Shown piece by piece: positions 16,856-25,336 of a DNA stretch of 32,000 nt (within the stretch, counting starts at the first letter, position 1; each line of letters starts with the position of its first letter). The stretch covers positions 990,001 through 1,022,000 of the forward strand of contig NZ_AP028907.1 in NCBI RefSeq assembly GCF_036323395.1. Direction: 5' to 3'. Under the pieces are notes generated by a model, which saw only the letters and a list, made by a program, of their open reading frames with translations, was not told the DNA's origin and ran no database searches. A program made the translations under genes and the position numbers. This DNA is from Pyrodictium abyssi. GTDB lineage: Archaea > Thermoproteota > Thermoprotei_A > Sulfolobales > Pyrodictiaceae.

Positions 16856-17263
16856 TTAGCTTTGCACAGACTTGAGGGCTATCAGGGCCTCTACAGGGAC
16901 TCCGCGGATAGTAATGCTTATCTTCTTACCCGATACGGGATCGCCAACTTTAATGCTGACCTCGTTCCACATTAGGCTTATCCTCTGGCTCTCGGCTATC
17001 GCGAGAAGCCCCTGCAGTATAGCTTTGAAGGCATTATGTGCATCAGGGTCTACCCTTTCAATAGTCTCCCTGACGCGCCGTAGCACCGTCTCTAGTAGCT
17101 CGCAGTCGCCCTCGATAGCTACGTACGCGCTGCGTATAGCGTGGGCAAACTCCTCCGGTATGGTGATGCTTTCCGGCATAATGTCCTGGAGACGGCGCAC
17201 AAGCTCGTATAGGCTGCCGCTATAGCATGTTCTCTGATACCCTATATCTTGGAGTGTATCCAC
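16856..17263 (-). CDS. EGDC-motif paralog, copy 1 (135 aa, unknown function)
   Basis: GTG start at 17263. Conserved blocks are RTCYSGSLYELVRRL, AYVAIEGDCELLE, VDPD, LMWNEVSI and ITIRGVPVEALIALKS. See the findings for the family alignment. Confidence 0.75.
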   Translation of the reverse strand: MDTLQDIGYQRTCYSGSLYELVRRLQDIMPESITIPEEFAHAIRSAYVAIEGDCELLETVLRRVRETIERVDPDAHNAFKAILQGLLAIAESQRISLMWNEVSIKVGDPVSGKKISITIRGVPVEALIALKSVQS

Positions 17264-17267
17264 TCAT

Positions 17268-17314
17268 CCCCCCCCCCCCCCCCCCCCCCCCCCCCCCCCC
17301 CCCCCCCCCCCCCC
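17268..17314. repeat. uninterrupted 47-nt poly(C) on the plus strand, poly(G) on the minus strand
   Basis: Counted directly: 17268-17270 (3) + 17271-17310 (40) + 17311-17314 (4). It ends 4 nt upstream of the GTG start of copy 1 on the minus strand and directly abuts an out-of-frame ATG (17267..17265). Confidence 0.98.
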
Positions 17315-17505
17315 GAAGCGTTGTACCGGAGGCGTAATGTGCGCCAGCACTGCTCTATACGGGCATCCTTCTCTAGCAATGCACATGCTTCGTAGGAATT
17401 TTAGCCCTATCCCCTTGTGCTGGACAGCCATAGCTCTCCACGAGTTACTGTGCTGCGTCGTGTGCTGGGGCCCGTAGGCTGCGCTGAAGGGGCTTTGCTG
17501 CCTAC

Positions 17506-17856
17506 GTGGCGGGTGTGGAGAGGCGTAAGCGGCTGAGCAGCGGCGAGACCAGGGTGTACTACAGCTATAGGGCTACAGTGCCCAGGCATGTCGCGGAGGA
17601 GCTGGGTCTGGACCCGGAGGGCGACCTGGTGCTCCTCCTGGCCGCCCGGCCCCGGTGGTACCACCTCCTCAACTACAACGAGGAGGAGAACCTGGGGACG
17701 TGGAGGAGTTTACCGGAGTGGGCCTGGGCTGAGGCCTGTATAGCGGGGCGCGGCCCCCGCGGCGAGTGCCGGGGACTACGGCTTCGTGGTACTAGTGGCT
17801 CCGAGGAGCGAGTTCGAGAGGCTTGGCCTAGAGCCCGGCTCTACTGTGTCCCCTAG
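17506..17856 (+). CDS. AbrB-like DNA-binding protein candidate; the C-terminal half may be frame-disrupted
   Basis: The N-terminal part is RVYYSYRATVPRHVAEELGLDPEGDLVLLLAARPRWYHLLNY. After about 17760, coding-looking peptides appear in the other frames (YGFVVLVAPRSEFERLGLEPGSTVS; LGELARLVRAVDTDGQQ), while the annotated frame becomes R/G-rich. Confidence 0.45.
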   Translation: MAGVERRKRLSSGETRVYYSYRATVPRHVAEELGLDPEGDLVLLLAARPRWYHLLNYNEEENLGTWRSLPEWAWAEACIAGRGPRGECRGLRLRGTSGSEERVREAWPRARLYCVP

Positions 17857-17987
17857 GGGAGCTAGCTAGGCTCGTGAGGGCCGTCGACACGGACGGGCAG
17901 CAGCGTGGCCGGTAGGCGGGGTTACCGGTTCTAGCGTAGGCCCGGTATGCGGTGGCTCCAGAGGGTCGTGTCTTGTGTCTCGCGGGC

Positions 17988-22975: not shown

Positions 22976-23767
22976 CTAGGCGGGCCTAGCGCTGTACCCC
23001 TCCTCCTCGAGGACCTCCCTAAGCTCTCCAGCATCGAGCCGGGCTAGCCTGGACCTCCGGTAGTTCCCCCTCGCCAATGCCCACGCGGCCTCCTCGCCGA
23101 GCATCCTCGCTAGGAGCCGGCTAGGCGGCTGCCTAGCTAGCCACGGCCTAGGCTCGGATAAGGGCGCCGGTGGGTACACCAGGTAGCCCCGGCCGATGAC
23201 AGCTGTAGGGTAGTCGCCGTGCCGGGCGTAGTGGGGGCTGCTCCGCAGCTGGGGGTGCCTGGCCAGGAGGCGGCCCCAGCCGGTCCTAGCCGTATCCACG
23301 ACCTCCTCCACCTCCAGGAACCCGGCCAGGTACACAGCGGCCCTCCCCTCGCCCGCCGCTAGGTGGAGTGCACGGCGTATCTCGGGGAGACTCCTCCTCC
23401 GGCTCCAGAAGCCCTCCGGGTACACGGCAAGCCCGGCCACGAAGCCGACTACGTCGCCGCTGGCTAGGCTCCGTGGGAGCCGGCCCCGTGGAGCGTAGTA
23501 GTCGGTGTAGAAGCCTAGGTCCAGCCTCGGGTCGTTATGCAGTAGCCACCAGCGGTCCACGGGGAGGAAGTCTAGGAGAGGCCGCCCAGTGCACGGGTCC
23601 ACCACGCTAGCCGGGTCCATGTGGCGGGCAGCTCTCTCGGCAAAGGCCTCGGGCACGGGGATGAGCGTGGCGCAGCCTACACCCGGCCACAGGGGCGAGT
23701 AGTAGCCCCCGCCGGGCAAGCTCCCCGTGTCGAGGTAGACCCTTAGGAGGAGCAGCCTCCCCGTCAT
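22976..23767 (-). CDS. conserved hypothetical protein, possibly of the Nmad3-type nucleotide-modification-associated family
   Basis: Intact 263-aa ORF. The N-terminus LLLLRVYLDTGSLPGGGYYSPLWPGVGCATLIPVPE resembles, by eye, the SRKGFDSxxGGxxSP....lPIP pattern. LHNDPRLD is another conserved-looking block. The family assignment is tentative. Confidence 0.6.
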   Translation of the reverse strand: MTGRLLLLRVYLDTGSLPGGGYYSPLWPGVGCATLIPVPEAFAERAARHMDPASVVDPCTGRPLLDFLPVDRWWLLHNDPRLDLGFYTDYYAPRGRLPRSLASGDVVGFVAGLAVYPEGFWSRRRSLPEIRRALHLAAGEGRAAVYLAGFLEVEEVVDTARTGWGRLLARHPQLRSSPHYARHGDYPTAVIGRGYLVYPPAPLSEPRPWLARQPPSRLLARMLGEEAAWALARGNYRRSRLARLDAGELREVLEEEGYSARPA

Positions 23768-23897
23768 CCTCTGCTAGGCCCTCCCGGCGGCTACGTAGGG
23801 ACAGCTAGCTGGAGCCGTACACATACTGTGGGTCACGCTTTATAACCCTGCGCTAGTGTAGCCCCAGAGCCGAATAGACAGACCGTCCGGAGAGGGA

Positions 23898-24304
23898 ATG
23901 GATACGTCCGGCAGCATGCCCGGAAGCAAGGTATGCTTTGATGGTAACTTGTTCGAACTAGTAAAGCGTTTTCTGGGCGCAATACCGGGCGAAGCCCAGG
24001 TACCCGACGAACTCGTATACGCCACCCATAGCGCCCGCGTCCGGGTCGAGGGCGACTGTAGCATCCTCGACGAGATCCGCAACCGGATGAGCGAGAGAAG
24101 AACCAGAGGCGGGGACCCCGAGCAGCCGTTAAAGAAGCTCCTTGAAACGATCGCGGCGGATGCTATCAAGTGTAGAACTGGGCTAATGTGGGGCGAAATA
24201 GCTATAGAGCTGGACTATGGCGGGGGTAGGCGGCTCCGCATAGTAGCGACGGGGTGCCTATCGAGACAGTGCTCTCGGTTAAGACTGCATGTGGGCAGCG
24301 GTAG
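23898..24304 (+). pseudogene. EGDC-motif paralog, copy 3, with an apparent 1-nt frameshift near the C-terminus
   Basis: Conserved blocks are KVCFDGNLFELVKRF, ARVRVEGDCSILDEI, GDPE, LMWGEIAIE and RRLRIVATG. The listed frame then gives CLSRQCSRLRLHVGSGSFL. One extra G in the G4 run at 24251..24254 gives VPIETVLSVKTACGQR-stop (24302..24304), which matches the family C-terminus. Confidence 0.65.
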
Positions 24305-24716
24305 CTTTCTGTAACCCCCTATACATTCTCTGCGTGCCGCAGAACATCTTCAGCGCTATCAGAACCTCTAGCGGGATACCCCGCACAGTAACTTCCACCC
24401 GCCTACCATCGCCGGAGACGAGTGCCACCCTCAGCTCGCCCCAGGTCAGCCGGGTGCTACACTCATCGACTATAGAGAGGAGCATCTGTAGGAGGGTCTC
24501 GAAGCTGACCCGCTGCTGGTCGGCCTCTCTGATGGCGCCCTTAGCCCGGGCAGCTAGCTCCTCGAGGAGCCCGCAGTCGCCCTCGGCTACTACGTAGGCT
24601 GACTGCAGGGCGTACTCGAACACTGGCGGCACCTCTATGTCCTCTGGCTTCGGGATACCGAGGAGCGTAAACAGCTCTAGAAGCCTACCACTATAGCATG
24701 TACGGTTCTCGTCCAC
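24279..24716 (-). CDS. EGDC-motif paralog, copy 4 (145 aa)
   Basis: Conserved blocks are RTCYSGRLLELFTLLG, AYVVAEGDCGLLEEL, LTWGELRVAL and VTVRGIPLEVLIALKMFCG. It converges on copy 3, and the 3' ends overlap. Confidence 0.75.
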   Translation of the reverse strand: MDENRTCYSGRLLELFTLLGIPKPEDIEVPPVFEYALQSAYVVAEGDCGLLEELAARAKGAIREADQQRVSFETLLQMLLSIVDECSTRLTWGELRVALVSGDGRRVEVTVRGIPLEVLIALKMFCGTQRMYRGLQKATAAHMQS

Positions 24717-24961
24717 GTGCTACGCAGCCCAGGCTATGTACCGGGCTTCGGTCCTACTAATAGGTGAGGTGTGTACACCGGTTCTGCTTCGTCTTCTGGT
24801 GCTACGTGGAGCCCACACATCTTCTATCAAGACAATGGTTATTAGGCTCCTTTGCCATCCGCGGGGTTTCCGAGGCAGTGCGTCATTCCGGGTGTTTTTG
24901 CTGGCTCTTCCGAGTATATGTCTCCCAGGGCCCTCTGGGGGCGCTCGCTTGCGTCGCGTAG

Positions 24962-25336
24962 CCGGAGGCTGTATACGGGACGGCTGGGAATGGTGTTTGC
25001 TTCACGGGTAGCCTCTCCGAGCTCCTGCGGCGCTTCGGCGCCGAGGCGTCCGCGGGGACTCAGACCGTGTACGTGCGCGTGGAGGGCGACTGTGGGCTCC
25101 TCGAGGAGCTGCTGGGCCGCGTCTGGGGCGGCGCAGCGGCCGGGGACCCGCTAGAAGCCCTGCTGGGCGTCCTCGCGGAGAAGGCTCTCCGCTGCAGCAT
25201 ACGCCTAGCGGTGGGCGAGCTAAGCCTAGAGGTCGGGGACCATGGCTCCGGCAGGGTGTTCCGGGTAACAGCGCGCGGAGCGCCGGTGGACGCGCTGCTC
25301 CGGGTGAAGAGCGTCTGCGGCCGCCGCGCATGGTAG
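24962..25336 (+). pseudogene. EGDC-motif paralog, copy 5; the conserved N-terminus has no in-frame canonical start
   Basis: The frame is open from 24962 and reads ...GNGVCFTGSLSELLRRFGAEASAGTQTVYVRVEGDCGLLEELLGRV...GDPLEALL...FRVTARGAPVDALLRVKSVCGRRAW. The first ATG/GTG/TTG in frame is GTG 25067, downstream of the CFxGxL block. An ATG at 24990 is one base out of frame. Confidence 0.6.

What the first reader, a model, noticed from the sequence alone, without database searches (positions are those of the whole stretch)
16856..25336. Five diverged copies of an unrecognised ~130-aa Cys-motif protein family (C[YF]xGxL ... EGDC ... G[VI]P[VIL]E.L..[LV]K..CG)
Aligned by eye, five small ORFs within 8.5 kb share the same block order. 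The blocks are: an N-terminal T/V-C-[YF]-x-G-x-L-x-E-L; then about 25 aa later [AS]-x-[VI]-x-[VA]-EGDC-x-[LI]-[LF]; a GDP/VDP turn; a [LM]-x-W-x-E-[VIL] strand; and a C-terminal [VI]-x-[VIA]-x-G-[VIA]-P-[VIL]-[ED]-x-L-[IL]-x-[LV]-K-x-x-CG-x-R. The copies are 16856..17263 (minus), 17988..18386 (minus), 23898..24304 (plus), 24279..24716 (minus) and 24962..25336 (plus). The conserved Cys residues (N-terminal C, the EGDC C, a mid C in four copies and a C-terminal CG in four) suggest a metal or disulfide site. I cannot assign these to any named family. They are interleaved with small DNA-binding genes, a secreted protein, a redox operon and an Nmad3-like gene. The divergence is roughly one third identity by eye, which argues for an old, maintained multigene family rather than a recent duplication.
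Basis: seen in the sequence. Interest (0 to 1): 0.8.

Follow-up and report, generated by a model that had tools for sequence, protein, structure and literature searches.

The report
Pyrodictium-only small cysteine protein family
Five neighbouring genes in Pyrodictium abyssi (three intact, two broken) encode diverged copies of a small cysteine-bearing protein. It matches no known family or solved structure and occurs only in this genus of ~100 °C archaea, so it is a real orphan family with an untested function.

Summary
The window is Pyrodictium abyssi chromosome, and five paralogues of a ~130-aa protein lie at the stated coordinates. They are 31-41 % identical, and every pair is significant (BLASTP E 1e-10 to 1e-24).

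- **Gene state:** three copies are intact (PABY_11090, _11110, _11180). Copy 3 has lost one G from a G5 run. Copy 5 has lost its start codon (ATG to ACG).
- **Known families:** there is no match in Pfam, NCBIfam, PHROGs, PADLOC or PDB sequences. Two confident AlphaFold2 models (pLDDT 85) have no whole-domain match in PDB or BFVD.
- **Distribution:** an exhaustive HMMER scan of 1.84 billion representatives, plus word-indexed searches, finds roughly 20 true members. All that can be placed are Pyrodictium (P. abyssi, P. delaneyi, vent metagenomes).
- **Age and selection:** c1, c3 and c4 each have a closer relative in another genome than any P. abyssi paralogue. The duplications therefore predate these lineages. 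dN/dS is 0.09-0.45.
- **Neighbouring redox operon:** it exists in Ignicoccus and other Desulfurococcales without the family, so there is no obligate link.

My best reading is a genus-specific cytosolic α/β domain with an invariant Cys pair, one Cys on the first turn of a helix after Gly-Asp, forming a thiol, disulfide or metal centre. A second, dispensable Cys pair probably forms a structural disulfide. The function is inferred, not shown. A 47-nt poly-G tract abuts the start of copy 1.

The parts
16856..17263 (-). Copy c1 (PABY_11090), 135 aa, intact. This is the 2-Cys type: it lacks the mid and C-terminal Cys.
   Evidence: ORF. 100 % match to a P. abyssi hypothetical protein. Orthologues are P0006 (59 %), P0021 and P0023. 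dN/dS against the L001 orthologue is 0.09.
17268..17314 (-). 47-nt homopolymer (C on the + strand, G on the coding strand of c1), ending 4 nt upstream of the c1 GTG start.
   Evidence: c1-type orthologues carry G14 (L001 9985-9998) and G10 (L014-L016) at the same place. It is the only G/C run of 8 nt or more in the window.
17988..18386 (-). Copy c2 (PABY_11110), 132 aa, intact, 4-Cys type.
   Evidence: AlphaFold2 model: pLDDT 84.9, pTM 0.79.
23898..24304 (+). Copy c3 (PABY_11170), 4-Cys type, disrupted by loss of one G in the run at 24251-24254. It reads as 135 aa once corrected.
   Evidence: The intact orthologue P0004 (81 % identical) has G5 at the site. dN/dS of c3 against it is 0.45, the highest of the orthologue pairs.
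24279..24716 (-). Copy c4 (PABY_11180), 145 aa, intact, 4-Cys type. Its 3' end overlaps the corrected 3' end of c3 by 26 nt. It is inverted relative to the same-strand trio in L005.
   Evidence: AlphaFold2 model: pLDDT 85.1, pTM 0.76.
24962..25336 (+). Copy c5 (PABY_11190), a full-length frame of 124 codons. The ancestral start codon is mutated (ACG at 24980). It is annotated as 89 aa from GTG 25067.
   Evidence: The orthologue P0007 (L005 1172-1576) is intact.
19789..20586 (-). Context gene: 265-aa protein with no Pfam match, divergent from the redox operon. It is a conserved neighbour of the c1-type gene in relatives.
   Evidence: about 50 % identity to L001, L014 and L002 genes in the same position.
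20810..22903 (+). Context operon. First gene: C_GCAxxG_C_C protein with a twin-arginine motif and two CxxCH motifs (20810-21874). Second gene: cytochrome-b-like membrane protein (21881-22903).
   Evidence: Syntenic in L001, L002 and L014. Also present in Ignicoccus pacificus and two Desulfurococcales MAGs without any family member nearby.
22976..23767 (-). Context gene: 263-aa gene with a weak Nmad3 match, divergent from c3.
   Evidence: E 1.1e-5, 25.7 bits, below the 27-bit cutoff. The homologous stretch in L006 is split into two ORFs.
25531..25797 (+). Context gene: eIF-1A, the conserved right-hand border of the c3-c5 cluster.
   Evidence: About 95 % identical in L002 and L014.

Best explanation
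What it is (shown). This is a paralogous protein family restricted to the genus Pyrodictium. Its members are small (about 125-150 aa), mostly acidic and lack a signal peptide. P. abyssi has five members, all inside 8.5 kb. Three are intact genes. Two are disrupted, one by loss of a base in a G run and one by loss of the start codon.

The family grew by local duplication before the sampled Pyrodictium lineages split. It has since been inverted, expanded and partly eroded in different lineages. The conserved backbone in the P. abyssi-type genomes is:
c1-type | 265-aa gene | C_GCAxxG/dihaem + cyt-b operon | one to three members | eIF-1A.

How it is built (predicted). The domain is a compact single α/β unit with the element order β1-α-α(-α)-β2-α3-α4-β3-β4-β5-α5. 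It has no whole-domain counterpart among solved or viral structures.

How it most likely works (inferred). The only invariant polar residues are Cys8, Asp48, Cys49 and Lys122 (c2 numbering). Glu46 and Glu93 are nearly invariant.
- Cys49 is the first residue of helix α3, directly after a Gly-Asp cap. In thioredoxin-like, peroxiredoxin and sulfur-carrier proteins this position makes a thiol reactive.
- I therefore propose that Cys8 and Cys49 form the working centre. It could be a reversible disulfide, a persulfide or a Cys/Asp/Glu metal site.
- The second pair (Cys85 in β3 and Cys125 at the end of α5) is probably an optional stabilising disulfide. Such bonds are common in the cytosol of hyperthermophilic Crenarchaeota.

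Each gene appears to have its own promoter, and no obligatory partner gene was found.
For: Identity of the family:
- Five significant paralogues.
- The window is P. abyssi.
- The exhaustive HMMER scan of 1.84e9 representatives gives 15 hits, of which 11 are true. The other four are long repeat proteins with 6-9 weak matching stretches each.
- Further members come only from P. delaneyi, Pyrodictium MAGs and vent metagenomes.

Real coding genes:
- dN/dS is 0.09-0.45 for orthologue pairs.
- Upstream TATA-like boxes (read by eye, not scanned) are conserved between c3, c4 and c5 and their L005/L006 orthologues.

Unrecognised family:
- No family-model match, no PDB sequence match, and no IMG/VR relative.
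- Models have pLDDT 85.1 / pTM 0.76 and pLDDT 84.9 / pTM 0.79, with the same order of elements.
- Foldseek against PDB gives a best E of 0.05-0.08 and TM of 0.32 or less. Only about 50 residues (β3-β5 plus α5) resemble the end of PH/PTB domains. BFVD gives nothing.

Old duplications: orthologue clades for the c1, c3 and c4 types have 100 % bootstrap. L005 carries the c3, c4 and c5 types intact on one strand.

Thiol centre:
- Invariant columns over 13 sequences are C8, G11, G47, D48, C49, G103, G112, P114 and K122.
- DSSP places C49 (C48 in c4) as the first helical residue in both models.
- 13 of 16 members have an even number of Cys. That matches the even-Cys signature of disulfide-rich thermophilic archaea (PMC3177088).
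- The mid and C-terminal Cys are absent together in all c1-type members.
- pI is about 5 for most members, which argues against nucleic-acid binding.
Against: - No experiment, no coordinates and no distance measurement were available. The closeness of Cys8 to Cys49, and of Cys85 to Cys125, is inferred from the order of secondary-structure elements only.
- All invariant residues could be purely structural: Gly/Pro turns, an Asp helix cap, a Lys salt bridge and a disulfide.
- Glu46 and Glu93 are replaced (Lys and Thr) in the P. delaneyi-type members, so a common acidic metal site is not universal.
- The joint loss of the second Cys pair happened in one clade, so it counts as one event.
- The models rest on shallow alignments of 10-13 sequences.
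- The AlphaFold DB could not be searched, so a match among predicted structures is not excluded.
- Linkage to the neighbouring redox operon is only positional.
- Two of five copies are broken, so at least some members are dispensable.
Confidence: 0.4

Rival explanations
1. The domain is a binding-only module with structural disulfides. It would act as an immunity-, antitoxin- or adaptor-like protein whose conserved core carries a fast-diverging surface. The paralogues would recognise different partners, and the cysteines would only stabilise the fold at about 100 °C.
For: - The copies form diverged arrays that include pseudogenes.
- Conservation is limited to the hydrophobic core, Gly/Pro and Cys.
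- The proteins are small and acidic.
- c1 sits at the edge of a region that differs between lineages.
- Toxin-antitoxin-type genes lie nearby: PaREP1 at 10644-11093, HEPN at 29540-30094, a weak DUF3800 match at 12083-12418, a weak SocA_Panacea match in L001, and PaREP1 in L015.
Against: - No cognate toxin or partner gene accompanies the copies. Neighbours are convergent or divergent and differ between copies and genomes.
- No PADLOC model matches the family or ten neighbouring proteins.
- The c3-c5 cluster lies between conserved chromosomal genes (the cyt-b operon and eIF-1A).
Confidence: 0.25
2. The copies are decaying lineage-specific genes, for example remnants of an old integrated element. 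They would have little or no present cellular role and would persist only because decay is slow.
For: - Two of five P. abyssi copies are disrupted.
- The L002/L014 copy before eIF-1A has a Cys-to-Arg change, an in-frame stop and has lost the invariant Pro.
- L001 keeps only fragments after the cyt-b gene.
- The family is restricted to one genus.
- The window has a patchy GC content, from 36 % to 71 %.
Against: - Intact copies show dN/dS well below 1 (0.09-0.39) across saturated synonymous distances.
- c1-type orthologues are retained in P. abyssi, P. delaneyi and the MAG lineages.
- There are no relatives in IMG/VR or BFVD.
- No att-like repeats or integrase were seen.
Confidence: 0.12
3. The family is a very diverged member of a known superfamily that the tools missed. 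Candidates are a thioredoxin-like or sulfur-carrier fold, Toprim (which has a 'VEGD' motif), or a PH-like domain.
For: - A Cys at a helix N-terminus resembles thiol oxidoreductases and TusA-like carriers.
- 'VEGDC' recalls the Toprim 'VEGxxD' motif. This comes from my memory only.
- There is a local Foldseek match of β3-β5 plus α5 to PH/PTB domains, probability up to 0.92 over 54 columns.
Against: - No Pfam hit recurs across the 13 members, even at E up to 10.
- Abundant folds such as thioredoxin or Toprim would be found easily by Foldseek, yet no hit exceeds TM 0.32.
- There is no CxxC and no conserved second acidic DxD motif.
- The three C-terminal strands are consecutive hairpins, unlike Toprim.
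Confidence: 0.08

Closest known systems
Lineage-specific multicopy families of hyperthermophilic Crenarchaeota (e.g. the PaREP families first defined in Pyrobaculum)
   Same: Both are small proteins of unknown function, present in several diverged copies within one narrow lineage, some of them decayed, and interspersed among unrelated genes. A PaREP1 gene lies in the same window.
   Different: There is no sequence or profile similarity to PaREP1/PaREP8 or any other Pfam family. PaREP1 is all-helical (HEPN-like, from my own knowledge), whereas this domain is α/β.
Small thiol proteins with a reactive Cys on the first turn of a helix (thioredoxin/glutaredoxin-fold oxidoreductases, TusA/DsrE-type sulfur carriers)
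   Same: Size is about 100-140 aa. Both are cytosolic, with an invariant Cys at a helix N-terminus preceded by a strand, and a second Cys that could resolve a disulfide.
   Different: There is no CxxC or CPxP motif, and the two Cys are 41 residues apart. No Pfam or Foldseek match exists. The invariant Pro lies after β5, not before β3 as the cis-Pro of thioredoxins does.
Cytosolic disulfide-stabilised proteins of thermophilic archaea (Jorda & Yeates 2011, PMC3177088)
   Same: Cys counts are even in 13 of 16 members, and one Cys pair is gained or lost as a unit.
   Different: That is a proteome-wide property, not a family. It explains the optional second pair but not the invariant first pair with its Gly-Asp context.
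PH/PTB-like domains (IDOL F3ab 6qlz, Numb PTB 5njj, Fe65 PTB2 3dxe)
   Same: Both have a three-stranded β-meander capped by a C-terminal helix. About 50 residues superpose at 2.6-3 Å.
   Different: The match covers only the last third of the protein. E is 0.05 or more, TM is 0.32 or less, and identity is about 10 %. The N-terminal β-α-α-β-α-α part has no counterpart.

Membership tests
Any Pfam / NCBIfam / PHROGs / PADLOC family | Profile-HMM match at or above the curated threshold | tested here: not met
   There are zero hits, except GcnA_N for copy 2 alone (20.4 bits, below the 27-bit cutoff; 1 of 13 members).
Thioredoxin-fold thiol-disulfide oxidoreductases | CxxC (or CxxS/T) motif at the N-terminus of α1 | tested here: not met
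   No CxxC occurs in any member. The invariant Cys residues are 41 positions apart.
Thioredoxin-fold thiol-disulfide oxidoreductases | βαβαββα fold recognisable by structure comparison | tested here: not met
   Foldseek against PDB returns no thioredoxin-fold protein for two models. The best TM is 0.32.
Toprim domain | Conserved Glu after strand 1, plus a DxD motif after strand 3, in a four-stranded parallel α/β core | tested here: not met
   Only the 'VEGD'-like string is present. There is no conserved DxD. Strands 3-5 are consecutive hairpins. There are no Toprim Pfam hits. The Toprim motif definition comes from my own knowledge.
PD-(D/E)xK nucleases | D ... (D/E)xK catalytic motif on adjacent strands | tested here: not met
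   No conserved (D/E)xK exists. Glu93 is replaced by Thr in the P. delaneyi-type members, and strand β5 has no conserved acidic or Lys residue.
Fe-S scaffold/carrier proteins (IscU, IscA, Nfu) | Family-specific Cys motifs and a Pfam NifU_N / Fe-S_biosyn / NifU match | tested here: not met
   There is no Pfam match. The c1-type members have only two Cys. Whether any metal or cluster is bound cannot be tested here.
Type II toxin-antitoxin or polymorphic-toxin immunity genes | Co-oriented, adjacent partner (toxin) gene conserved across loci | tested here: not met
   Neighbours are convergent or divergent and differ among copies and genomes. There is no PADLOC hit.
PH/PTB-like superfold | Seven-stranded β-sandwich closed by a C-terminal helix | tested here: not met
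   Only three strands plus the helix align (about 50 columns). The rest of the protein is helical.
Accessory subunit of the C_GCAxxG/cyt-b redox module | Co-occurrence with the operon wherever the operon occurs | tested here: not met
   The operon is present in Ignicoccus pacificus, an Acidilobaceae MAG and a Desulfurococcales MAG, with no family member within the 10-kb flanks. The P. delaneyi member P0012 lies elsewhere.
Cytosolic disulfide-bonded proteins of hyperthermophilic Crenarchaeota | Cys residues paired in space and oxidised in vivo | not testable with these tools
   Model coordinates are not returned. Only Cys parity (13 of 16 even) and the joint loss of one pair are available.

The most novel reading that the evidence does not exclude
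The family may be a previously unseen protein fold carrying a new kind of thiol, persulfide or metal centre. It would have been invented within Pyrodictium, organisms that grow at or above 100 °C. It could serve sulfur or metal redox metabolism next to the exported C_GCAxxG-dihaem/cytochrome-b module. Expression of the most conserved member (c1 type) might be tuned by a hypervariable poly-G tract (G10, G14, G47) directly upstream of its start codon.
Probability: 0.1. Interest if true: 0.65.

Novelty: categorically new. Interest (0 to 1): 0.38.

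Why it matters
If the models are right, this is a confidently predicted small domain with no recognisable relative in sequence or solved-structure space, and it is confined to one genus living at the upper temperature limit of life.

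- It is a clean, tractable candidate for a new fold. The proteins are 130 aa, soluble, and come in natural 2-Cys and 4-Cys variants for comparison.
- It is also a case study of how new gene families are born, duplicated and lost in hyperthermophilic archaea.

The practical impact is limited until a function is found. Orphan families are common in these genomes, and nothing here bears on a long-standing open question.

Tried and rejected
- **Family libraries.** Pfam, NCBIfam, PHROGs and PADLOC scans of 5-13 members returned nothing usable. The single GcnA_N hit for copy 2 is below threshold and is not shared by other members.
- **PDB sequence profile search.** It returned only de novo designed helical proteins at E of 0.007 or more. 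I treated these as composition noise.
- **Foldseek on two models.** The proteasome subunit hits (rmsd 13-16 Å, TM 0.24) and the PH/PTB partial hits were rejected as whole-domain matches.
- **Long repeat proteins.** P0016-P0019 from the exhaustive search were rejected. Each has 6-9 weak stretches, and the two inspected (P0016, P0017) are long tandem-repeat proteins.
- **Pattern scans with the family profile.** Scans of genome contigs and metagenome contigs found no relative. P. abyssi and the JGI contigs that hold members were evidently not reached by the single 'EGDC...' pattern. These negatives say little.
- **IMG/VR scan.** Negative.
- **Functional coupling to the redox operon.** Rejected as obligatory.
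- **Internal duplication.** I compared the two N-terminal β-helix-helix units by hhalign. The result was P = 0.065 with probability below 1 %, so it is not supported.
- **Integration-site repeats.** I searched for att-like repeats around the intron-containing tRNA at 13839-13948. Only the conserved EGDC-coding stretches of the paralogues repeat.
- **Literature.** No paper mentions PABY locus tags. The P. abyssi matrix protein AbpX (WP_338249486.1) is a different, distant gene.
- **Antisense ORFs.** The ORFs antisense to each copy were regarded as by-products of high GC content.

Full report
**1. The observation**

A MAFFT alignment of the five gives 33-45 % identity to the first sequence. The invariant columns include the N-terminal Cys, EGDC, a Glu, two Gly, a Pro and a Lys.

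All ten pairwise BLASTP comparisons are significant at an effective database size of 1e8 (E 1e-10 to 1e-24). An HMM of the five finds only these five places in the six-frame translation of the window, and the next best score has E = 2.5. The repeat is real and far beyond chance.

Two copies are not intact as they stand:
- **Copy 3.** It changes frame after '...RIVATG'. Adding one G to the GGGG run at 24251-24254 restores 'GVPIETVLSVKTACGQR*', ending at 24304. The 81 %-identical orthologue on metagenome contig L006 has GGGGG there and is intact.
- **Copy 5.** It is one open frame from 24962, but it has no start codon ahead of the conserved Cys. Aligning its upstream region with the intact orthologue on L005 shows ATG changed to ACG at 24980.

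GenBank annotates these two as truncated products of 121/132 aa and 89 aa.

**2. Source and census**

Searching the five-sequence profile against 5.8 billion proteins returned 100 % matches named Pyrodictium abyssi, on a 2.22-Mb contig. The locus tags are PABY_11090, 11110, 11170, 11180 and 11190, all annotated 'hypothetical protein'. No other P. abyssi protein matched, so every detected member in that genome sits in this 8.5-kb stretch.

An exhaustive HMMER scan of 1.84 billion cluster representatives gave only 15 hits at E ≤ 0.001. Eleven are true members. The other four are long repeat proteins scored through 6-9 weak stretches. A second search with a 13-sequence profile added only Pyrodictium entries:
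- P. delaneyi Pyrde_0756 and Pdsh_10060
- a Pyrodictium sp. MAG protein
- a JGI vent sequence

One member is labelled 'Aigarchaeota' in a MAG. However, it lies beside an eIF-1A gene about 95 % identical to that of P. abyssi, so the bin label is probably wrong.

**3. No known family and no known fold**

| Resource | Result |
|---|---|
| Pfam, NCBIfam, PHROGs, PADLOC | No model matches. No weak hit recurs among 13 members even at E ≤ 10. |
| PDB sequences (profile search) | Only designed helical proteins, at E 0.007 or worse |
| AlphaFold2, copy 4 (10-sequence alignment) | pLDDT 85.1, pTM 0.76 |
| AlphaFold2, copy 2 (13-sequence alignment) | pLDDT 84.9, pTM 0.79 |
| Foldseek against 350,542 PDB chains | No hit at E ≤ 0.001; best E 0.05-0.08, TM ≤ 0.32 |
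| Foldseek against BFVD | Nothing |
| IMG/VR | No relatives |

Both models give the same element order: β1, two or three short helices, β2, α3, α4, three consecutive strands and a C-terminal helix. The only coherent Foldseek similarity is about 50 residues (β3-β5 plus α5) to the end of PH/PTB-like domains.

No AlphaFold DB library was available. 'New fold' therefore remains a claim about solved and viral structures only.

**4. Evolution**

Contigs from relatives give the locus history. The backbone shared by L001, L002 and L014-16 is:

c1-type gene | a ~250-265-aa gene (242-263 aa in relatives) | C_GCAxxG/cyt-b operon | member(s) | eIF-1A | MFS | RIO kinase

P. abyssi has extra DNA in four places:
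- between c1 and the 265-aa gene (copy 2, a 116-aa ORF and a 369-aa secreted protein)
- after cyt b (the Nmad3-like gene plus copy 3)
- after eIF-1A (a CLC channel)
- before the RIO kinase gene (a HEPN gene)

L005 carries the c3-, c4- and c5-type genes intact and on one strand, so copy 4 has been inverted in P. abyssi.

A neighbour-joining tree with 200 bootstraps groups c1, c3 and c4 each with genes from other genomes (100 %). It puts c2 and c5 in one clade with P0007 and P0013 (91 %). The duplications therefore predate the split of these lineages.

Nei-Gojobori dN/dS for orthologue pairs is 0.09-0.45. The highest value belongs to the frameshifted copy 3. This fits purifying selection on intact copies and relaxation on broken ones.

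Decay is recurrent:
- The copy before eIF-1A in L002/L014 has Cys-to-Arg, an in-frame stop and has lost the invariant Pro. Its orthologue P0013 (L010) is intact.
- L001 keeps only fragments after the cyt-b gene.

**5. Context**

The neighbours are as follows.

| Coordinates | Gene |
|---|---|
| 20810-21874 | C_GCAxxG_C_C protein with an RRxF twin-arginine motif and two CxxCH motifs |
| 21881-22903 | Cytochrome-b-like membrane protein, a weak match |
| 22976-23767 | Sub-threshold Nmad3-like gene |
| 25531-25797 | eIF-1A |

Scanning one genome per GTDB species for the cyt-b-like protein found the module in Ignicoccus pacificus (60 % identity), an Acidilobaceae MAG and a Desulfurococcales MAG. 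A six-frame HMM search of those loci, with 10-kb flanks, found no family member.

The P. delaneyi-type member lies next to a WD40 gene in a different region. The family is therefore not an obligate partner of the operon.

The genes face different directions. TATA-like boxes upstream of c3, c4 and c5, read by eye, are conserved with the L005/L006 orthologues. No conserved co-oriented partner exists, and ten surrounding proteins have no PADLOC match.

**6. How it may work**

Over 13 sequences the invariant residues are C8, G11, G47, D48, C49, G103, G112, P114 and K122 (c2 numbering). L13, L16, A37, V43, E46 and E93 are nearly invariant.

The first Cys pair:
- In both models the strand β2 ends at Gly47 and the helix α3 begins at Cys49. 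Cys49 thus sits on the first helical turn behind a Gly-Asp cap.
- From general protein chemistry, this position lowers a thiol's pKa. This point is my own knowledge.
- Cys8 lies at the start of β1.

The second Cys pair:
- Cys85 lies in β3 and Cys125 at the end of α5.
- Both are missing in all c1-type members.
- Thirteen of 16 members have an even number of Cys. That is the signature of cytosolic disulfide bonding in thermophilic archaea (PMC3177088).

Most members are acidic, with pI about 5.

My reading is that the first Cys pair forms a functional thiol, disulfide or metal centre, and the second pair is an optional stabilising disulfide. This is inference. I could not obtain model coordinates, and every invariant residue also has a purely structural explanation. 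I put about 0.9 on 'real, genus-restricted, unrecognised protein family' and about 0.35 on the thiol-centre mechanism.

**7. Rivals**

- **Binding or immunity-like module (0.25).** It fits the array-with-pseudogenes pattern and the nearby toxin-antitoxin-type genes. It lacks a partner gene.
- **Decaying remnant genes (0.12).** It fits the lesions but not the low dN/dS or the retention of c1-type orthologues.
- **Missed membership of a known superfamily (0.08).** It is disfavoured by the Foldseek and HMM negatives.
- **Chance or non-coding.** Excluded.

**8. Verdict**

The 'unrecognised family' claim is supported, and 'old and maintained' is only partly supported.

No known kind fits, so I file it as categorically new at the level of family and fold, with the AlphaFold DB caveat. 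My interest score is moderate to low (0.38). Orphan families are common in hyperthermophilic Crenarchaeota, the distribution is one genus, and nothing yet points to a function.

Noticed in passing
window 17268-17314 (C on + strand); L001 9985-9998; L014 4855-4864; L015 5605-5614; L016 5018-5027: A homopolymeric G tract on the coding strand sits directly upstream of the start codon of every c1-type gene. Its length varies: G47 in P. abyssi, G14 in L001 and G10 in the Pyrodictium MAG contigs. In P. abyssi it occupies the place where L001 has a TATA-like 'cttatt' box. It could be an expression switch, a Shine-Dalgarno-like run, a G-quadruplex or an assembly artefact.
   Followed up: partly
window 20810-22903; L011 (Ignicoccus pacificus CP006868), L012, L013: The C_GCAxxG_C_C protein carries a twin-arginine signal motif (RRAF), two CxxCH haem-c motifs and a C-terminal hydrophobic tail. 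A cytochrome-b-like membrane protein follows it. The pair is conserved at 47-60 % identity in other Desulfurococcales. It may be an exported membrane redox module.
   Followed up: partly
window 13839-13948 (+): Rfam finds a 110-nt tRNA, presumably containing an intron, that ARAGORN does not call. The 97-aa ORF at 13659-13952 (-) overlapping it is probably spurious. No att-like repeat of it was found downstream.
   Followed up: partly
window 2001-5500: This is a low-GC island (36-42 % GC against 60-70 % around it). It holds a 1000-aa ORF (2454-5456, -) with no Pfam or PADLOC match, so it is probably foreign DNA.
   Followed up: partly
window 8898-10436 (-), 10644-11093 (-), 12083-12418 (-), 29540-30094 (-): The flanks hold a 512-aa ORF with no family match and several toxin-antitoxin- or defence-flavoured small genes. 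These are a near-threshold PaREP1 match (23.0 bits against a 24.4-bit cutoff), a weak DUF3800 match and a HEPN gene. The HEPN gene and the CLC channel (25959-27890) are absent from the syntenic contig L002.
   Followed up: partly
window 18606-19715 (+): A 369-aa protein has an N-terminal hydrophobic signal-like segment and an internal repeat around 'GWNLV' (DNA repeat D3 at 19236 and 19488). It has no Pfam match and is absent from the syntenic contigs of relatives. It is not the published P. abyssi matrix protein AbpX.
   Followed up: partly
window 24279-24716 vs L005 567-968: Copy 4 is inverted in P. abyssi relative to the same-strand c3-c4-c5 trio in L005. Its 3' end now overlaps the 3' end of copy 3 by 26 nt, and it carries an 18-aa C-terminal tail not found in other members.
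   Followed up: partly
L003 (GCA_012962645.1, DTXD01000092.1): A contig binned as 'Aigarchaeota archaeon' carries a family member. In the overlapping contig L002, the adjacent eIF-1A gene is about 95 % identical to that of P. abyssi, so the contig is probably a mis-binned Pyrodictium fragment.
   Followed up: partly
L006 112-748 (-): The homologue of the Nmad3-like gene next to the c3 orthologue is split into two ORFs (97 and 77 aa) in this metagenome contig. This suggests decay of that gene too.
   Followed up: no
L008 10477-10962 (-) (P. delaneyi CP013011): The gene convergent with the P. delaneyi family member encodes a 161-aa protein. Read by eye, it looks like a ribbon-helix-helix N-terminus fused to a PaREP1/HEPN-like helical domain. 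A PIN_2 gene with a small upstream ORF lies 1.3 kb away.
   Followed up: no
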